Below, piece after piece: positions 2,824 to 10,427 of a stretch of DNA of 38,441 nt. A program made the position numbers and the translations under genes. Position 1 is the stretch's first letter. Each line of letters starts with the position of its first letter. The stretch is from a virus. The stretch spans positions 1-38,441 of IMG/VR virus record IMGVR_UViG_3300045988_109852; one strand, written 5' to 3'. A model generated the notes under the pieces. That model ran no database searches. It worked only from the letters and a program-made list of their open reading frames with translations, and was not told where the DNA came from.

Positions 2824-4449
2824 TCACCACGCCTTTCTCGCTCTCTTCTGCCGCTTCATCTGCTCGATGAGCTTCTCCCGCGGCTTTTCCGGCTCCGTGA
2901 GCACCGTCATCCGCTGCTGATGCCGCACCGCGTAGGTGATCGCCGCGCCCATCACAAGGTCGTCGTGCTTCCCGGCGAGCGCCTCCGGCCGGTGGTCCTC
3001 GTTGTAGCAGAACGTCAGCATTTCTTCGAGCAGCTCCCGGTCGGTAAACCACTCCGGATGCGAGGAAAACACCTCCACCAGATTCGCAATGGCCCGCGGA
3101 CGGCTCTGCCGGTCGGTGCGAAAGCCGTAGCTCTTTTTCATCTGCCGGGTGTAGGTGTCCTCCCGCTCGCGGCTGTATTGATTCGGATACTCCGTCTCCT
3201 GCAGCTTCATCACCGGGTAGGTAGAGAAGTTCGTCTCGATGGCAACGAGCGCATCGTTGTAGAACCTCCCGAGTGCAAAGATCTGCCGGACGTATTCCGG
3301 CTCGCTGTATTTCTGCCGGAGCTTCGCCACGATCCTCCCGCTCACGTTGTCGATGACGATCGCCGTGAAGTAGTCCGAGCCCTCGCCCGCCGTGTCGCCG
3401 CCGAGCACATACGGAACGCCCTCCTCCGGCAGCTCGTAGAGCGTGATCGCGCCGGTCTCGCTCTCCGTCCACTCGCCGTCCGCAAACTCTCCGCGCCCGG
3501 CAGGGGATGGGAGCCGTTCCAGCCGGAGCACGATCTGCTCGTTGTCGAATACGCCCGTGCCGCTGTGGAGAAACGCCTCGCCGGGAGAGGCGGGATACTC
3601 CTGCCGGAACATGTCCAGGCTCCCGCCGCAGTTGTTCGCAATGCACCAGCGCCGCCATTGGAGCTGCTCTTCCGTCAGCTGATAGGCGGCCTTGAGATCC
3701 CGCTCCTCCGGCGTCCATTCCGTCCCCGGAACTACCGGCATCGAGTAGTCCGGGTTTTCAAACCACGCGAAGAACACCGGCTCAAAGTCGTTCTCCCCCG
3801 CAACGGCGGCGTCCCAGCGCTCCTTGAAGTCCTCAAAGCCGTTCGCCGTGCTCTCGATGACGACCATCGTGCCCGGCAGACTCGGCACGGCCTGTAAAAT
3901 GCCGGCAAGCGTGGAGGCTTTCCCGTCCGCGCCGTCCGGCCAGAAGGCGTACTCCGAAAGATGCACGCATTGCAGCGTGTCGCTTCGGCCGATGCCCCTG
4001 CCTCCCGCCGTCGCGCATCGGATCCGGGAGCGCAGTCCCGGCCTTGCCTCCCGCTCGCTGCGGAGCTTGGAGGGGTTCTCGAATACCAGCTCCTGCGCGT
4101 TCGAGGCGCGCAGCATCGGCTTCACCGGCGCGGGCAGCTCGTCGTAGAACAGCTTGCTCATCCGAAAAAGGTTCGCCGTCGCGTCCTCGCGGTGCGCAAC
4201 GATCAGCGCGTTTACGTTCTTTCGCGTCGCGCAGGCATGGAAGATGAGGCCCTCCGTCAGTGTGGAAAAGCCGAGCTGCCTGGCCTTGAGAATGATGAGC
4301 CGCACGGGCTTCCCCGCGTCCTGCTGCCGCTTCGCCACGGCGTAGAGCTTTCGCTGCGCGTCGTTCAGCCGGAACGGCACGACCGTCCCGCTCTTCGTCT
4401 TGATCTTGAGACAGCTCTCGATGTAGTCCATTGCTATGCACGGGTTCAT
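2824..4449 (-). CDS. terL: Terminase large subunit
   Basis: 541 aa. It has a Walker-A-like KARQLGFST motif and the nuclease-domain style typical of phage TerL. It overlaps terS by 4 nt. Confidence 0.9.
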   Translation of the reverse strand: MNPCIAMDYIESCLKIKTKSGTVVPFRLNDAQRKLYAVAKRQQDAGKPVRLIILKARQLGFSTLTEGLIFHACATRKNVNALIVAHREDATANLFRMSKLFYDELPAPVKPMLRASNAQELVFENPSKLRSEREARPGLRSRIRCATAGGRGIGRSDTLQCVHLSEYAFWPDGADGKASTLAGILQAVPSLPGTMVVIESTANGFEDFKERWDAAVAGENDFEPVFFAWFENPDYSMPVVPGTEWTPEERDLKAAYQLTEEQLQWRRWCIANNCGGSLDMFRQEYPASPGEAFLHSGTGVFDNEQIVLRLERLPSPAGRGEFADGEWTESETGAITLYELPEEGVPYVLGGDTAGEGSDYFTAIVIDNVSGRIVAKLRQKYSEPEYVRQIFALGRFYNDALVAIETNFSTYPVMKLQETEYPNQYSREREDTYTRQMKKSYGFRTDRQSRPRAIANLVEVFSSHPEWFTDRELLEEMLTFCYNEDHRPEALAGKHDDLVMGAAITYAVRHQQRMTVLTEPEKPREKLIEQMKRQKRARKAW

Positions 4450-7997: not shown

Positions 7998-8582
7998 TTA
8001 TTCCTCCGGCGCGTCCCAATCGCACCAGCTCATTGCCTCCAGATGCCGCCACTTTCGGAGCGTCGCCTCGCTGTCCGTGTCCTCTCTCGGGCGATAGCCG
8101 CGGCGGTACAGCCGCTCGCCGGTGTCGCCGTCCTCCTGCCGGACGATCCCGTTCGGCGTAATTGAGTACCGGCGCACGCCCAGACTTGCGCCCCGCTGTG
8201 TCACTCCGACGATCTCTCCGGTTTTCTTCTGCATCAGGAAGTCCAACCCCAGCCGCAGTCCGGTCGGGCGGATCTCCTCCTCGTCTTCTTCTACTATGTA
8301 CCCGGCGATCTCCTCACCCACGACCTCCGGCAGCACGGTATTAACGACAAATGCTCCCTTGCTCCGCATGATCTGCACCGTCTCCATGCCCGGGATATAC
8401 CCCAGCATCTCCACCAGCGCGCCGAGCGTCCCGCGCAGACGGTCTCGCAGCTCAATTTCCGGGATGACCGCCATCCACCCGCAGCCGATCACCGTCAGCT
8501 CGCTCACACCGCCGCATAGCGTCAGCCCGCCCTTCGTCTCCGCCCTGAGCGCCCGCTCCAGCGCCGCATCGTCAAACGCCAT
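7998..8582 (-). CDS. Hypothetical early protein
   Basis: 194-aa ORF with genome-typical codon usage. No motif recognised. Confidence 0.5.
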   Translation of the reverse strand: MAFDDAALERALRAETKGGLTLCGGVSELTVIGCGWMAVIPEIELRDRLRGTLGALVEMLGYIPGMETVQIMRSKGAFVVNTVLPEVVGEEIAGYIVEEDEEEIRPTGLRLGLDFLMQKKTGEIVGVTQRGASLGVRRYSITPNGIVRQEDGDTGERLYRRGYRPREDTDSEATLRKWRHLEAMSWCDWDAPEE

Positions 8583-8607
8583 ATGTATTTACCTCCATTT
8601 TCATGTT

Positions 8608-10230
8608 TTATTTATTGTTGGATTCTTCAAAATGGTGTTTTGTAACAGCGATTGGAAATTCTTCAATCTCCGAAGCCCATCTTGCGGTTCCCGCTCCGTG
8701 GATGCTTTCCCAGCAGAGTGGGAAGCCGCCGATCCCATCAAACAGGCTGCCGAGCGTCGCGCCATCCGGAAGATACGACGCCATTCTCCCGAACATCCAG
8801 CGCCAGAACGGGAGCGCGATGGAGTTGCCGAGCGCCTTGTACTTCGGCGCGTCCGCTTCCTTGTGTACGCGGCCTTTCTCGTCCGTCCAGTCGCCGATGC
8901 CGACCCATCCGTCCGGATACCCTTGAAGCCGTGTACATTCCAATGGGGTAAGCCGACGAACGACCATGCGCTCCATAACGTGCTGTTGTGTCCCGCCGCT
9001 CGCATGAGCTTTCAACGTGCCGAATTGGTCTATGTAAGCGTTTTTCTCGTCGTCGATGCTTATTACAAGATCCGTAGCGTCTTTGGAATCTCGCTGTTTG
9101 CAGGAAGAAACGATTTCCGACTCTTTATAGTCTCCAAACCCCTGCATCGAAAACGTACAGGGTACCTGGTTTCCGCCGGTCCCCATTCTCGCTTGCAATG
9201 ATGGGGACGACACATCTCTGCTCTCGCGTATCACGTCATTTGCGTGGCTCATGTCCAGGATGCACACACCGCCTTGATTTTTGCTTGGGTCTGGCGGAGA
9301 TGTATCAAGCGTTTTTGCTACGTCAACCGATCTGCACCCGCTGTTCGGGTTTTTACTTTTCATCGAATTTGACGCAAGGGAATCGAAACTAAAAGCCATG
9401 ACCGCCGGTCGGTCAATCGTATTGAGGGTGTAGCTTATATCCTCTTTCCATCCCTTGCCATTGCATCCGGCCGTATCGGCACGGTCTATTCCGTTGCCCT
9501 GTAAGCAGAAGATTTGAGCTCCAGAACAGTTTTCAGCACCTCCGGCAGTTTCTTCCCGCGCTGTTCCGCCCTCCGGAGGATCCCGGCGCACGCTTTCGGC
9601 GTCAGGTTGTACTTCGGGTCGGGACGCTCTTCCAGAATCTGCGATAACTTCGTGGGCACCGGGATCTTCGGCTCCTCCGAAACGTTCAAAGAGGATATCC
9701 CCTGCAGTGGATCCGTTAAAATCGACCACCATGCTGATACGCCGTCTGCGCTGGGGAACTCCCCAGTATTGTGCGTCGTGCGTTCTCCATGCGACACTCC
9801 ATCCGTCGCCGAGCATTCCTCCGGCTTTCGTCCACTTCTGCTTGTCCGGCAGTCGAGGAAGAGAAAACCCCGGTTCTGCGATGCGTACAGCTTCTTCCAG
9901 CACGGCTCCGAAATCTCCGAATCCGTCCTTGAAGTTGCTGCTGAATGCGCCTGGCACATTTTCCCAGACCATATACCGAGGTCGAACAAGCTCACCTGTC
10001 CGTCCAATGCTTCTGTCATGCTCTCTCATCTCCTTGACGATCCGTATCTGTTCCATGTACAAGCCGGAACGAGCACCGGCAAGTCCTGCACGTTTCCCTG
10101 CGATGCTCAAGTCCTGGCAAGGACTCCCGCCGGTGATGCACCAGACGGGCTCAACTTCTGCGCCATTGATCTTTGTGATGTCTCCTAAATGCTTCAAGGT
10201 CTTTTTCTCCGGCCTGCCATCTTCAGGCAT
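8608..10230 (-). CDS. DNA (cytosine-5) methyltransferase with circularly permuted motif order
   Basis: Motifs occur in this order: GDITKI (III), GGSPCQDLS (IV), WENVPGAF (VI), QYWGVPQRRRR (VIII), a variable region, RRLTPLECTRLQGYPDGW (IX), ALGNSIALP (X). Motifs LGSLFDGIGGF (I) and WASEIEEFP (II) follow only at the C-terminus. Confidence 0.85.
   Translation of the reverse strand: MPEDGRPEKKTLKHLGDITKINGAEVEPVWCITGGSPCQDLSIAGKRAGLAGARSGLYMEQIRIVKEMREHDRSIGRTGELVRPRYMVWENVPGAFSSNFKDGFGDFGAVLEEAVRIAEPGFSLPRLPDKQKWTKAGGMLGDGWSVAWRTHDAQYWGVPQRRRRISMVVDFNGSTAGDILFERFGGAEDPGAHEVIADSGRASRPEVQPDAESVRRDPPEGGTAREETAGGAENCSGAQIFCLQGNGIDRADTAGCNGKGWKEDISYTLNTIDRPAVMAFSFDSLASNSMKSKNPNSGCRSVDVAKTLDTSPPDPSKNQGGVCILDMSHANDVIRESRDVSSPSLQARMGTGGNQVPCTFSMQGFGDYKESEIVSSCKQRDSKDATDLVISIDDEKNAYIDQFGTLKAHASGGTQQHVMERMVVRRLTPLECTRLQGYPDGWVGIGDWTDEKGRVHKEADAPKYKALGNSIALPFWRWMFGRMASYLPDGATLGSLFDGIGGFPLCWESIHGAGTARWASEIEEFPIAVTKHHFEESNNK
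9486..10019 (-). CDS. Nested alternative-frame ORF inside the methyltransferase gene (candidate overlapping gene)
   Basis: 177 codons open, with AAGGAG 10 nt upstream of the ATG. Composition is protein-like, including the helical motif KLSQILEERPDPKYNLTPKACAGILRRAEQRGKKLPEVLKTVLE. Third-position G+C is much higher in this frame than in the MTase frame across 9522-9675. Confidence 0.35.
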   Translation of the reverse strand: MTEALDGQVSLFDLGIWSGKMCQAHSAATSRTDSEISEPCWKKLYASQNRGFLFLDCRTSRSGRKPEECSATDGVSHGERTTHNTGEFPSADGVSAWWSILTDPLQGISSLNVSEEPKIPVPTKLSQILEERPDPKYNLTPKACAGILRRAEQRGKKLPEVLKTVLELKSSAYRATE

Positions 10231-10271
10231 GGGCGGCCATCCCCATACGACGGGCCTTCCGCCCGTTTCGG

Positions 10272-10427
10272 CTAATCGATAATTTTTTCACTGTACAACC
10301 GGGCAATGTTCTCCCAGTCGTCGGCGTTCACATTGCCCTGATATCCAATCAGGAAGCACACAACATCCATCCTGTCCCAGCTGCGCTTTGTGCTCTCTAC
10401 ATACTTTGCGATCTCGTCGTAGCTCAT
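10272..10427 (-). CDS. Hypothetical small protein
   Basis: The internal Met of the 74-aa ORF gives a 51-aa product, MSYDEIAKYVESTKRSW... The RBS is weak. Confidence 0.35.
   Translation of the reverse strand: MSYDEIAKYVESTKRSWDRMDVVCFLIGYQGNVNADDWENIARLYSEKIID

What the first reader, a model, noticed from the sequence alone, without database searches (positions are those of the whole stretch)
9486..10019. 177-codon protein-like ORF nested in an alternative frame of the C5 methyltransferase gene (candidate overlapping gene)
A second frame is open for 534 nt entirely inside the MTase gene. Its ATG at 10019 is preceded at 10 nt by AAGGAG, which is the MTase codons for K-E in IVKEMRE. Most off-frame ORFs in this GC-rich genome are Arg/Pro/Ala-rich, but this product is not. 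It has a balanced composition and a convincing helical motif, KLSQILEERPDPKYNLTPKACAGILRRAEQRGKKLPEVLKTVLE. The nested ORF's first ~100 codons overlap the MTase frame's conserved motifs VI-VIII (WENVPGAF, QYWGVPQRRRR). The MTase frame there determines the nested peptide; for example, WENVPGAFSS is read as GKMCQAHSAA. Its C-terminal half overlaps a stretch where the MTase frame is only a low-complexity linker (GGAEDPGAHEVIADSGRASRPEVQPDAESVRRDPPEGGTAREETAGGAE). There, by my hand count, third-position G+C is 21/25 (9601-9675) and 17/20 (9541-9600) in the nested frame. The MTase frame gives 9/26 and 11/20. So the nested frame looks like the one matching host codon bias in this stretch. From memory and unverified, motifs of the form LSQILE..P.KY.LS.KAC.GIL.RA..RGK.LP occur in proteins annotated on Firmicutes mobile elements. 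If so, this frame may be conserved widely. The possible explanations are a true overprinted gene, programmed frameshifting into a helical domain, or two compensating indels in the assembly.
Basis: partly seen in the sequence, partly recalled or inferred. Interest (0 to 1): 0.75.

Follow-up and report, generated by a model that had tools for sequence, protein, structure and literature searches.

The report
Conserved gene nested inside methyltransferase gene
A second protein-coding gene is hidden in another reading frame inside a phage DNA cytosine-methyltransferase gene; it is kept by selection in hundreds of phages and mobile elements (including phage P1), is not in the family libraries searched, and seems to encode a detached piece of the enzyme.

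Summary
The 177-codon ORF (9486-10019, minus strand, +1 relative to the C5 methyltransferase gene 8608-10230) is real. Comparative evidence indicates a genuine nested gene, not chance or an assembly artefact.

- Openness: all 76 distinct viral homologues carry a homologous +1 ORF, one of them cut short.
- Start signals: a Shine-Dalgarno (SD) motif and ATG are conserved, and the motif moves with the start codon.
- Host-gene constraint: synonymous diversity in the methyltransferase frame falls from 0.42 to 0.25 at the nested start and to 0.08 over its C-terminal module.
- Selection: the nested frame is the selected one there (pN/pS 0.14-0.39 against 1.3-1.75 for the methyltransferase frame).

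The product has a disordered N-terminal ~120 residues, largely dictated by motifs VI-VIII. Its C-terminus is a conserved ~50-residue three-helix module (KLSQILE..KY.L..KAC.GILRRAE.RGK.LP).

This module matches 4223 protein clusters. It sits +1-nested in methyltransferase genes of phages of Firmicutes, Vibrio, Streptococcus and E. coli (P1 dmt). It lies in frame after motif VIII in one canonical relative. It is therefore probably the enzyme's own module, now made as a separate small protein. That trans-acting role is inferred.

No Pfam, PHROGs or NCBIfam family and no paper was found. The window's clade partly resolved the overlap by tandem duplication.

The parts
8608..10230 (-). Host gene: a 540-aa C5 DNA methyltransferase, circularly permuted. 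Motif order is III (HLGDITKI) - IV (GGSPCQDLS) - VI (WENVPGAF) - VIII (QYWGVPQRRRRI) - linker - target-recognition region - IX (RRLTPLECTRLQGYP) - X (YKALGNSIALP) - I (LFDGIGG) - II (WASEIEEF).
   Evidence: ORF. PF00145 E=2.9e-29 in 4 stretches. TIGR00675 E=6e-25, below the curated cut-off. Motif coordinates. At least 250 viral loci encode relatives.
9486..10019 (-). Nested gene in the +1 frame: 177 codons, ATG to TAG.
   Evidence: ORF. A homologous +1 ORF is present in all 76 distinct viral homologues, truncated only in L037. 586 protein clusters match it over about its full length. Synonymous diversity of the host frame drops across exactly this span.
10030..10035 (-). Shine-Dalgarno motif AAGGAG of the nested gene. 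It is the K-E codons of IVKEMRE and lies 10 nt upstream of the ATG.
   Evidence: Both synonymous third positions are G in 37 of 39 distinct sequences, while neighbouring synonymous sites vary freely. The two sequences that lack it also lack the ATG. In another subfamily the motif is GAGGTG-N8-ATG, shifted along with the start. An SD match of at least 5 nt occurs in 46% of loci against 8% of control ATGs.
10017..10019 (-). Start codon of the nested gene, formed by caT GAc of the methyltransferase H-D codons.
   Evidence: The aligned column holds ATG in 57 and GTG in 6 of 66 sequences. Upstream of the module, it is the only alignment column with a start-capable codon in more than 77% of sequences.
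9651..10016 (-). N-terminal extension of the nested protein (residues 2-123). It is read across methyltransferase motifs VI-VIII, is predicted disordered, and is weakly constrained.
   Evidence: Nested-frame pN/pS is 0.98-1.75 against 0.07-0.30 for the methyltransferase frame. Host-frame synonymous diversity is nevertheless 0.246 against 0.417 outside (p=4e-9). AlphaFold2 gives block-mean pLDDT 42-60 and no secondary structure.
9513..9650 (-). Conserved three-helix module (residues 124-169): KLSQILEERPDPKYNLTPKACAGILRRAEQRGKKLPEVLKTVLELK. The methyltransferase frame here is only a linker.
   Evidence: In the window's clade, nested-frame pN/pS is 0.14 and 0.39 against 1.34 and 1.71 for the methyltransferase frame. 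Many residues are invariant over variable third positions. AlphaFold2 block-mean pLDDT is 67-92 with helices at 124-128, 141-154 and 160-176. A profile of the module hits 4223 clusters.
9673..9738 (-). Copy 1 of a clade-specific tandem duplication. It keeps the methyltransferase reading (ISMVVDFNGSTAGDILFERFGG); the nested reading has decayed (SAWWSILTDPLQGISSLNVSEE).
   Evidence: It aligns to the single-copy segment of L014 at 31/41 nt, and 0 of 500 shuffles reach that score. Methyltransferase-frame pN/pS is 0.18 against 1.75 for the nested frame.
9580..9651 (-). Copy 2 of the duplication. It keeps the nested reading (TKLSQILEERPDPKYNLTPKAC); the methyltransferase reading has decayed (EVIADSGRASRPEVQPDAESVRRD).
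   Evidence: It aligns to the same L014 segment at 57/84 nt, and 0 of 500 shuffles reach that score. Nested-frame pN/pS is 0.14 against 1.34 for the methyltransferase frame.

Best explanation
9486-10019 (-) is a genuine same-strand nested gene in the +1 frame of a phage C5 DNA methyltransferase gene.

How it is made (shown from sequence comparison). Ribosomes start independently at its own SD and ATG (AAGGAG-N10-ATG, 10035-10017). These signals are built from the methyltransferase codons K-E...H-D. The product is a 177-aa protein.

What it consists of (shown).
- The first ~120 residues are a disordered, weakly constrained extension. Its sequence is largely dictated by methyltransferase motifs VI-VIII.
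- The last ~50 residues are a strongly conserved three-helix basic module, KLSQILE..P.PKY.L..KAC.GILRRAE.RGK.LP..LK..L.

Where the module comes from (inferred). It is the enzyme's own ancestral segment between motif VIII and the target-recognition region. In this large family the methyltransferase polypeptide carries a free-evolving linker at that position, and the module is supplied as a separate small protein from the other frame.

What it does (inferred, not tested). The small protein associates with the methyltransferase in trans, like a fragment of a split enzyme, and probably helps bind DNA. Encoding it inside the enzyme gene ties the two products together.

In the window's own clade an 84-nt tandem duplication separated the doubly constrained stretch. 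One copy now serves the methyltransferase frame and the other serves the nested frame (duplication and frame-specific selection shown; the interpretation as conflict resolution is inferred).
For: 1. Conserved ORF. A homologous +1 ORF is present in all 76 distinct viral homologues (47-83% methyltransferase identity) and is truncated only in L037. Outside the overlap the +1 frame has 3.8 stops per 100 codons.

2. Start signals.
- ATG or GTG is in the aligned column in 63 of 66 sequences.
- The synonymous third positions of AAGGAG are fixed in 37 of 39 sequences while neighbouring ones vary.
- Motif and start are lost together.
- The motif shifts with the start in another subfamily.
- SD-like motifs are enriched over control ATGs.

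3. Synonymous constraint in the host frame. Diversity is 0.417 outside the overlap, 0.246 over the extension (p=4e-9) and 0.082 over the module (p=1e-15). The drop begins at KEMREHD.

4. Frame-specific selection. Over the module, nested pN/pS is 0.14-0.39 against 1.2-1.75 for the methyltransferase frame. The reverse holds over motifs VI-VIII. In short-form relatives there is a doubly constrained zone in which all 18 nt of LSQILE/VADFG are invariant in 55 sequences.

5. The module is a real protein element.
- It folds confidently in AlphaFold2.
- It matches 4223 clusters.
- It is in frame in a canonical 538-aa methyltransferase, L155.
- It is in frame with the target-recognition region and motifs IX-X in beta-type ORFs L108, L133 and L159.
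- It is a stand-alone annotated 81-aa gene, gp104, in mycobacteriophage Thibault.

6. Tie to the methyltransferase. Of 80 genome loci found by the module alone, 76 have methyltransferase motifs IV-VIII in the -1 frame overlapping it. The other four still matched the methyltransferase N-terminal part, in other frames.

7. Breadth. The module is +1-nested in the annotated methyltransferase CDS of P1 (dmt), a Vibrio phage, a Streptococcus phage and a gut phage whose CDS is annotated as hypothetical.

8. Duplication with frame-specific retention in the window's clade.
Against: - No direct evidence of translation (ribosome profiling, peptides) is available.
- Given the methyltransferase amino-acid sequence, each half of the +1 frame stays open about 35% of the time under synonymous shuffling. 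The 76 loci are also phylogenetically related, so openness alone is weaker than it looks.
- The N-terminal extension shows no amino-acid-level conservation of its own (pN/pS about 1 or more). It is not alignable to the extension of the non-overlapping L108 protein.
- The SD spacing of 10 nt, and 13 nt in some genome loci, is on the long side.
- The trans-acting role is untested. Sequence and fold searches of solved structures gave nothing. Similarity to the equivalent segment of E. coli Dcm falls in the right place but is weak (E 0.032, probability 1.6%).
- Whether the in-frame state in L155 is ancestral or a secondary re-fusion is not settled.
Confidence: 0.65

Rival explanations
1. The nested gene is real and translated, but its product now has a function of its own and is not needed for catalysis. 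Examples would be a small DNA-binding regulator of methyltransferase or phage gene expression, or a factor acting on host defence.
For: - The module is a small, basic helical unit that can exist as a stand-alone 81-aa gene. In mycobacteriophage Thibault the methyltransferase is broken up by HNH endonuclease genes.
- It stays intact and conserved in L001-L004, where the methyltransferase frame carries a 4-nt insertion and an in-frame stop.
- The arrangement with a separate small protein is by far the commonest: 60 of 80 genome loci and all 76 viral loci. That could mean separation is advantageous for a distinct role.
Against: - In a module-first search the module was never found away from a C5 methyltransferase gene.
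- It is covalently part of the enzyme in L155 and of beta-type subunits in L108, L133 and L159.
- It occupies the place of a segment present in canonical enzymes, although that similarity is weak.
- The methyltransferase in the L001-type lineages is still under purifying selection, with pN/pS 0.2-0.5 at saturated pS.
Confidence: 0.2
2. The module is reached by programmed +1 (or -2) ribosomal frameshifting from the methyltransferase frame. This would yield a trans-frame fusion of the N-terminal catalytic part with the helical module, rather than an independently initiated protein.
For: - Both frames are open and conserved, and the module directly follows motif VIII in most relatives.
- A few database proteins are frame-0-to-nested-frame fusions: P0068, P0099, P0102 and the first methyltransferase CDS of Faecalibacterium phage FP_Toutatis.
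- In short-form relatives the overlap contains an invariant T-run followed by GGAGGAG.
Against: - The nested frame has its own conserved start codon and an SD motif that covaries with it.
- Synonymous constraint begins at that start, about 100 codons upstream of the module. The +1 frame is kept open over that whole stretch.
- No slippery motif is shared by the window, L014, P1, Vibrio and Streptococcus phage sequences. The window's copy 2 has TTCT where the short forms have TTTT.
- The fusion proteins join the frames at different points, as expected of sporadic indels.
- A fusion would delete the core strand after motif VIII.
Confidence: 0.07
3. The nested frame is not translated. The ORF and its conservation would be by-products of G+C-rich composition, methyltransferase amino-acid constraints, nucleic-acid-level constraints or assembly errors.
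For: - Long off-frame ORFs are common in this 57-64% G+C window.
- The methyltransferase sequence alone leaves the +1 frame open in a third of shuffles.
- The N-terminal part of the peptide is conserved only because the methyltransferase is.
- Gene callers report the ORF mainly where the methyltransferase frame is interrupted.
Against: - Over the module, variation concentrates on nested-frame third positions and on Leu/Arg first positions, with invariant amino acids. Nested pN/pS is 0.14-0.39, while the methyltransferase frame behaves like the non-coding third frame.
- The same module is in frame or stand-alone elsewhere.
- After duplication each copy kept a different frame.
- The layout recurs in hundreds of independent assemblies and in isolate phages, so it is not an assembly artefact.
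Confidence: 0.03

Closest known systems
M.AquI, the natural two-subunit C5 methyltransferase. Cited in PMC5944983 (refs 45, 46) as naturally bisected between motif VIII and the target-recognition domain. That its two ORFs overlap is from my own recollection.
   Same: Parts of one C5 methyltransferase are made as separate polypeptides from the same locus. The break lies after motif VIII. Relatives L133 and L159 (overlapping) and L108 (adjacent) have just such an alpha/beta layout, with the module at the start of beta.
   Different: In the window the large polypeptide keeps both halves (III-VIII and IX-X-I-II) joined by a linker. Only a ~50-residue module is detached. It is encoded entirely inside the enzyme gene in another frame, behind a ~120-residue extension that overlaps motifs VI-VIII. 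The window is therefore not an alpha/beta split enzyme.
Overprinted (overlapping) genes of viruses, as reviewed in PMC8227390 and PMC3494269
   Same: A long same-strand overlap with two frames both under selection. The N-terminal part of the nested protein is disordered and dictated by the older frame. Synonymous variation in the host frame is reduced.
   Different: The conserved, folded part of the nested protein is probably not a de novo invention. It looks like an older part of the host protein itself, and the host-frame linker is the derived reading. The overlap sits in dsDNA phages and mobile elements of several bacterial phyla, not in a small compact virus.
Engineered split and complementing C5 methyltransferase fragments of M.SssI, M.MpeI and M.HhaI (PMC3404938, PMC5944983)
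   Same: They show that C5 methyltransferases tolerate being cut into fragments that reassemble non-covalently, especially between motif VIII and the target-recognition domain. This is the working model proposed here.
   Different: Those are laboratory constructs with two large fragments. Here a natural small module would complement an otherwise complete enzyme. No complementation experiment exists for this family.
Natural circularly permuted C5 methyltransferases such as M.BssHII and M.Alw26I (PMC5944983)
   Same: The host gene is a circularly permuted C5 methyltransferase, plausibly made by duplication and truncation.
   Different: The known natural cases are all Type H (IX-X-I-VIII). The window's enzyme starts between motifs II and III (Type B). 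[quoted passage not shown]

Membership tests
Same-strand nested overlapping protein-coding gene | The alternative-frame ORF is kept open in homologues more than expected | tested here: met
   A homologous +1 ORF is present in all 76 distinct viral loci, truncated only in L037, against 3.8 stops per 100 codons in the same frame outside. Synonymous shuffles give P(open) of about 0.35 for each half per sequence. The architecture is retained in 60 of 80 module-first genome loci.
Same-strand nested overlapping protein-coding gene | Purifying selection on the alternative frame and reduced synonymous variation in the host frame | tested here: met
   Nested pN/pS is 0.14-0.39 over the module against 1.2-1.75 for the host frame. 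Host-frame synonymous diversity is 0.417 outside, 0.246 over the extension and 0.082 over the module (p=4e-9 and 1e-15).
Same-strand nested overlapping protein-coding gene | Own translation-initiation signals | tested here: met
   AAGGAG-N10-ATG is conserved. The SD motif's synonymous sites are fixed. Motif and start are lost or moved together. This is sequence-level evidence only.
Same-strand nested overlapping protein-coding gene | Direct evidence that the product is made (ribosome footprints, peptides) | not testable with these tools
   No expression data were available. No paper describing this ORF was found.
Split (alpha/beta) C5 methyltransferase of the M.AquI type | Motifs I-VIII and IX-X lie on two different polypeptides | tested here: not met
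   In the window one 540-aa ORF carries III-VIII and IX-X-I-II. The feature is met only in relatives L108, L133 and L159, and in poly-G indel variants.
Split (alpha/beta) C5 methyltransferase of the M.AquI type | The separately made pieces assemble into an active enzyme | not testable with these tools
Programmed ribosomal frameshift site | A conserved slippery sequence or stimulator at the frame junction, and no independent start for the second frame | tested here: not met
   No motif is shared upstream of the module across subfamilies. The second frame has its own conserved SD motif and ATG about 120 codons upstream.
C5 cytosine DNA methyltransferase (PF00145): membership of the nested product | Detectable similarity of the nested peptide to the family profile or to a solved methyltransferase | tested here: inconclusive
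   No Pfam hit at E<=1. No significant hit among solved-structure sequences or folds. The only hhalign match to E. coli Dcm is at the equivalent place (Dcm 309-338) but is weak (E 0.032). The module is, however, in frame inside a bona fide PF00145 protein, L155 (E=7e-48).
Assembly artefact (two compensating indels) | The frame arrangement is peculiar to this assembly and absent from independent sequences | tested here: not met
   The same arrangement is found in IMG/VR contigs, GTDB genomes, ENA and Logan assemblies, and GenBank isolate phages.

The most novel reading that the evidence does not exclude
An ancient nested gene, not represented in the family libraries or the phage annotations examined, lies inside a very large family of phage and mobile-element C5 methyltransferase genes. 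The family spans Firmicutes, Actinobacteria and Proteobacteria and includes dmt of the model phage P1. The enzyme has outsourced one of its own structural modules to a small protein read from the +1 frame of its own gene. Both products would be needed for activity. Evolution has repeatedly changed the arrangement, through duplication that separates the frames and through poly-G tracts whose length converts a fused enzyme plus small protein into alpha/beta subunits.
Probability: 0.45. Interest if true: 0.9.

Novelty: new variant of a known kind. Interest (0 to 1): 0.85.

Why it matters
Long same-strand overlapping genes in dsDNA phages and bacteria are rare and often disputed. This case has unusually strong comparative support and very wide distribution, with thousands of protein clusters and hundreds of bacterial species.

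It occurs in phage P1, so it can be tested directly in a standard model system. If confirmed, it adds a missing gene to the annotation of a very common class of phage and mobile-element methyltransferases.

It would also show a new way for an enzyme to be split: a module moved to another frame of its own gene. The window's clade gives a clean natural example of an overlap conflict being resolved by duplication.

There is a practical side. These enzymes shape phage escape from restriction and the methylomes seen in gut metagenomes. Cloning or codon-optimising them without the hidden frame could silently remove a needed component.

Tried and rejected
Searches that gave nothing for the nested peptide or module:
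- Pfam, PHROGs and NCBIfam.
- Sequences of solved structures, by single sequence and by profile.
- Foldseek against PDB with the full model and the domain-only model (best E 2.2 and 1.6).
- Near-identity DNA search of GenBank phages, which found only two short matches.
- Source names for the database copies: none.
- Five literature searches and one review check found no description.

Ideas considered and rejected:
1. That the long database proteins with the nested N-terminus in frame with the target-recognition region and motifs IX-X (P0124, P0156, P0234 and others) represent the main architecture. Their frame junctions differ from one protein to the next. They often sit at poly-G tracts or follow stretches of off-frame reading, so most are indel variants of the window type. 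Only L133, L159 and L108 look like genuine alpha/beta forms.
2. An internal start just upstream of the module. No conserved start codon exists between the first column and the module. Residues just upstream (V, S, R) are themselves conserved over variable third positions. In the window a GGAGGAG-N12-GTG at about 9679-9655 remains a minor possibility.
3. A conserved slippery site for frameshifting. None is shared across subfamilies.
4. Homology between the extension of the non-overlapping L108 protein and the nested extension. hhalign aligns only the module, although the DNA retains a decayed motif-VIII remnant.
5. Stop-codon recoding (TAG read as Gln) as an explanation of the TAGA insertion in relatives. 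The frame after TAG is not methyltransferase-like.
Full report
**1. The observation**

The window holds a 540-aa ORF at 8608..10230 on the minus strand and, inside it, a 177-aa ORF at 9486..10019. The large ORF matches the C5 DNA methyltransferase family PF00145 (E=2.9e-29, four stretches).

The nested ORF is in the +1 frame. AAGGAG lies at 10035-10030, ten nucleotides before the ATG at 10019-10017, and the stop is TAG at 9488-9486.

Over 9489-9690 the nested frame has 50/67 and the methyltransferase frame 28/67.

On its own the ORF is not remarkable. The window is 57-64% G+C and has 73 ORFs of at least 150 aa across the six frames. If the methyltransferase's synonymous codons are shuffled, each half of the +1 frame stays open about 35% of the time. 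Everything that follows therefore rests on comparison with relatives.

**2. The ORF is conserved**

A search of 5.8 billion proteins with the 177-aa peptide returned 586 clusters. Most are stand-alone gene calls of 140-190 aa with no Pfam domain. They cover nearly the whole query, with identities down to about 41%.

A scan of viral contigs with the methyltransferase gave 250 relatives, and 80 loci were kept (47-83% identity). In every one the +1 frame gives a tblastn match to residues 1 to about 166-177 of the nested peptide. All 76 distinct loci carry a homologous +1 ORF. Only L037 is truncated. The same frame outside the overlap carries 1077 stops in 28305 codons.

**3. It has its own start signals**

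- The aligned first column is ATG in 57 and GTG in 6 of 66 sequences. No other column upstream of the module has a start-capable codon in more than 77% of sequences.
- The two synonymous third positions inside AAGGAG (codons K and E of VKEMRE) are G in 37 of 39 distinct sequences. Synonymous sites on either side vary freely.
- The two sequences without the ATG also lack the motif, reading AAAGAA or AAAAAA.
- In a non-permuted subfamily (a gut phage and Streptococcus phage Javan261) K-E is AAAGAA. There the start lies two codons downstream and is preceded by GAGGTG-N8, made from M-R-C codons.
- In 56 distinct genome loci, an SD match of at least 5 nt at 4-12 nt occurs in 46%, against 8% of control ATGs.

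**4. Selection acts on different frames in different zones**

On a codon alignment guided by the nested protein, diversity over nested codons 1-90 peaks at nested position 2, which is methyltransferase position 3 (0.15/0.32/0.17). Over the C-terminal module it peaks at nested position 3 (0.19/0.18/0.32). Many residues are invariant over variable third positions.

| Zone | Group | Nested frame pN/pS | Methyltransferase frame pN/pS |
|---|---|---|---|
| Motifs VI-VIII | all sequences | 1.3-5.6 | 0.07-0.21 |
| Module | all sequences | 0.35 | 1.22 (third frame 1.04) |
| Methyltransferase-only zone | 55 short-form | 1.46 | 0.18 |
| Doubly constrained zone | 55 short-form | 0.61 | 0.48 |
| Nested-only zone | 55 short-form | 0.32 | 1.75 |

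In the doubly constrained zone all 18 nucleotides encoding LSQILE (nested) and VADFG (methyltransferase) are invariant. The codons for K, Y, L and P of the nested frame are fixed alongside GDTAGEILFER.

A synplot-like scan looked at synonymous third positions in the methyltransferase frame, using conserved-residue columns of 53 sequences.
- Outside the overlap, diversity is 0.417.
- Across the N-terminal extension it is 0.246 (Mann-Whitney p=4e-9).
- Across the module it is 0.082 (p=1e-15).
- The drop begins at KEMREHD, where the SD motif and ATG lie. It ends after the nested stop.

It also argues that translation begins at the conserved ATG rather than just before the module.

**5. What the product looks like**

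AlphaFold2 with a 57-sequence alignment gives block-mean pLDDT of 42-60 and no secondary structure for residues 1-120. For 124-176 it predicts three helices, with block-mean pLDDT rising from 67 to 92. The domain alone gives the same helices. Foldseek finds nothing significant in the PDB.

In BFVD, a library of predicted viral protein structures, Foldseek finds two hits. One is a 521-aa 'cytosine specific methyltransferase'. The other is an 81-aa protein of mycobacteriophage Thibault.

No Pfam, PHROGs or NCBIfam model matches the peptide.

**6. The module belongs to the methyltransferase**

A profile of the module alone hits 4223 clusters (at 50% identity) at E<=1e-3, and 2916 at E<=1e-10.

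Of those best 80:
- 76 have methyltransferase motifs IV-VIII in the -1 frame overlapping the module;
- 60 have the window's layout;
- the other four still matched the methyltransferase N-terminal part, in other frames.

One locus, L155, is a canonical single-ORF 538-aa C5 methyltransferase (PF00145 E=7e-48). It has KLSDILERDADPKYILSAKACLGILRRAESRGKVLPAVLSQALRAQ in frame about 60 residues after motif VIII. There the -1 frame has stops.

Other layouts also exist.
- L108 has an alpha ORF (I-VIII) followed by an adjacent beta ORF: extension, module, target-recognition region.
- L133 and L159 have the same two ORFs overlapping.
- The L108 extension still carries a decayed motif-VIII remnant in its -1 frame. 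It therefore probably arose by duplication of an overlapping ancestor.

E. coli Dcm aligns to the module only at residues 309-338 ([30 protein letters not shown]). From my own knowledge of the conserved motifs, this is the equivalent position after motif VIII. The match is weak, however (E 0.032).

I therefore infer that the module is an old part of the enzyme and that the methyltransferase-frame 'linker' is the derived reading. Whether L155 is ancestral or a re-fusion is open.

**7. Breadth**

In GenBank phages the module matches 121 records. They include 25 Vibrio, 15 Mycobacterium and 13 Escherichia phages, as well as Pseudomonas, Aeromonas, Burkholderia, Akkermansia and Roseobacter phages.

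Where I checked, the match lies in the +1 frame inside the annotated methyltransferase CDS and is not annotated itself. The cases checked are Vibrio phage PS10B.1, Streptococcus phage Javan261 and gut phage NatCom_11578, whose CDS is annotated as hypothetical.

In phage P1 (AF234172.1) dmt spans 66412-68676. A +1 open stretch of 163 codons spans 66710-67201. It has GGAG-N7-ATG and ends ...LLSQVLEQTSIPQRYFLSSKACAGILRRGEKRRKSLPPLLQMALQSVAKA.

In mycobacteriophage Thibault the methyltransferase is fragmented by HNH endonuclease genes. There the module is an annotated stand-alone gene, gp104.

**8. The window's own clade**

The window and seven close relatives carry about 28 extra codons. Both window segments, 9738-9673 and 9651-9580, align to the same single-copy segment of L014. 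The identities are 31/41 and 57/84 nt, and no shuffle out of 500 reaches either score.

| Copy | Window coordinates | Methyltransferase frame pN/pS | Nested frame pN/pS |
|---|---|---|---|
| Copy 1 | 9738-9673 | 0.18 | 1.75 |
| Copy 2 | 9651-9580 | 1.34 | 0.14 |

A tandem duplication has thus separated the doubly constrained stretch, and each copy now serves one frame. This is hard to explain unless both readings matter.

**9. Mechanism and rivals**

Best supported: independent initiation yields a small protein whose functional part is the helical module. I infer that this protein works with the methyltransferase in trans. That step is untested.

- An independent role for the small protein cannot be excluded (about 0.2).
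- Programmed frameshifting is unlikely. The frame has its own start, the constraint begins at that start, no slippery site is shared, and sporadic fusion proteins join the frames at different points.
- Non-translation or artefact is very unlikely, given the frame-specific selection and the in-frame and stand-alone versions.

**10. Known or new**

Split C5 methyltransferases (M.AquI) and engineered complementing fragments are known (PMC5944983, PMC3404938). Overprinted viral genes are also known (PMC8227390).

I found no description of this nested gene in five literature searches and one review check. No curated family exists for it, and no name is attached to its database copies. I rate it a new variant of a known kind.

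**11. Side observations**

- The host enzyme is a natural Type B circular permutant. A 2018 study reported this topology as absent from natural C5 methyltransferases.
- Several relatives carry an identical TAGA insertion right after the catalytic cysteine codon, yet remain under purifying selection.
- Poly-G tracts of 7-11 nt occur in a target-recognition module. One extra G turns the window-type layout into an alpha/beta layout.

Noticed in passing
window 8608-10230 (-): The methyltransferase is circularly permuted with its N-terminus between motifs II and III, giving the order III-IV-VI-VIII-TRD-IX-X-I-II. Slaska-Kiss et al. 2018 (PMC5944983) found this 'Type B' topology the most active when engineered. 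[quoted passage not shown] Here it is natural and common: 250 viral loci encode relatives.
   Followed up: partly
L001-L004 3882-3896; L068, L069, L071 and L082 2576-2590; L081 2570-2584 (not in the window, where 10105-10131 is intact GGSPCQDLS): An identical 4-nt insertion reads CCT TGT TAG A CAG GA. It places a TAG stop directly after the catalytic cysteine codon and shifts the rest of the methyltransferase to +1. The lineages carrying it have saturated synonymous divergence (pS 0.5-0.8), yet the downstream frame is still under purifying selection (pN/pS 0.2-0.5). This is a candidate stop-stimulated +1 frameshift site, or a split at the catalytic loop.
   Followed up: partly
L014 ~3137-3143 (G7); L093 ~2706-2713 (G8); L091 ~1592-1600 (G9); L102 ~2697-2707 (G11): Homopolymeric G tracts lie inside a target-recognition module (YAVRIRGG / GGGKG). 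One extra G, as in L093 against L014, stops the methyltransferase frame. The nested ORF then runs on into the target-recognition region and motifs IX-X-I-II, turning the fused layout into an alpha/beta layout. This could be phase variation or homopolymer assembly error.
   Followed up: partly
L176 (phage P1, AF234172.1) 2180-2671 = record 66710-67201: The model phage P1 carries the same unannotated +1 nested ORF inside dmt. The open stretch is 163 codons, with GGAG-N7-ATG giving about 157 aa. This offers a tractable system to test the finding.
   Followed up: partly
L177 (Mycobacterium phage Thibault, NC_023738.1) 323-2453: The C5 methyltransferase is broken into pieces (gp102, gp105) by two HNH endonuclease genes (gp103, gp106). 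The helical module is annotated as a separate 81-aa gene, gp104. The methyltransferase-frame reading AEVLFERQGVSGD... is still visible in another frame.
   Followed up: partly
L173 (Faecalibacterium phage FP_Toutatis, MG711466.1) 1293-2704: The first annotated 'DNA-cytosine methyltransferase' CDS switches from the methyltransferase frame into the nested frame, apparently near a Gly run (PAGGGDG). It ends with the helical module, and a second CDS carries the rest. This isolate has a frame-fusion variant.
   Followed up: no
window 9514-10188 (+), 9707-10282 (+), 8122-9201 (+): Long antisense ORFs of 224, 191 and 359 aa lie opposite the methyltransferase gene and its neighbour. Such ORFs are expected in G+C-rich coding DNA. 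Their conservation was not examined.
   Followed up: no
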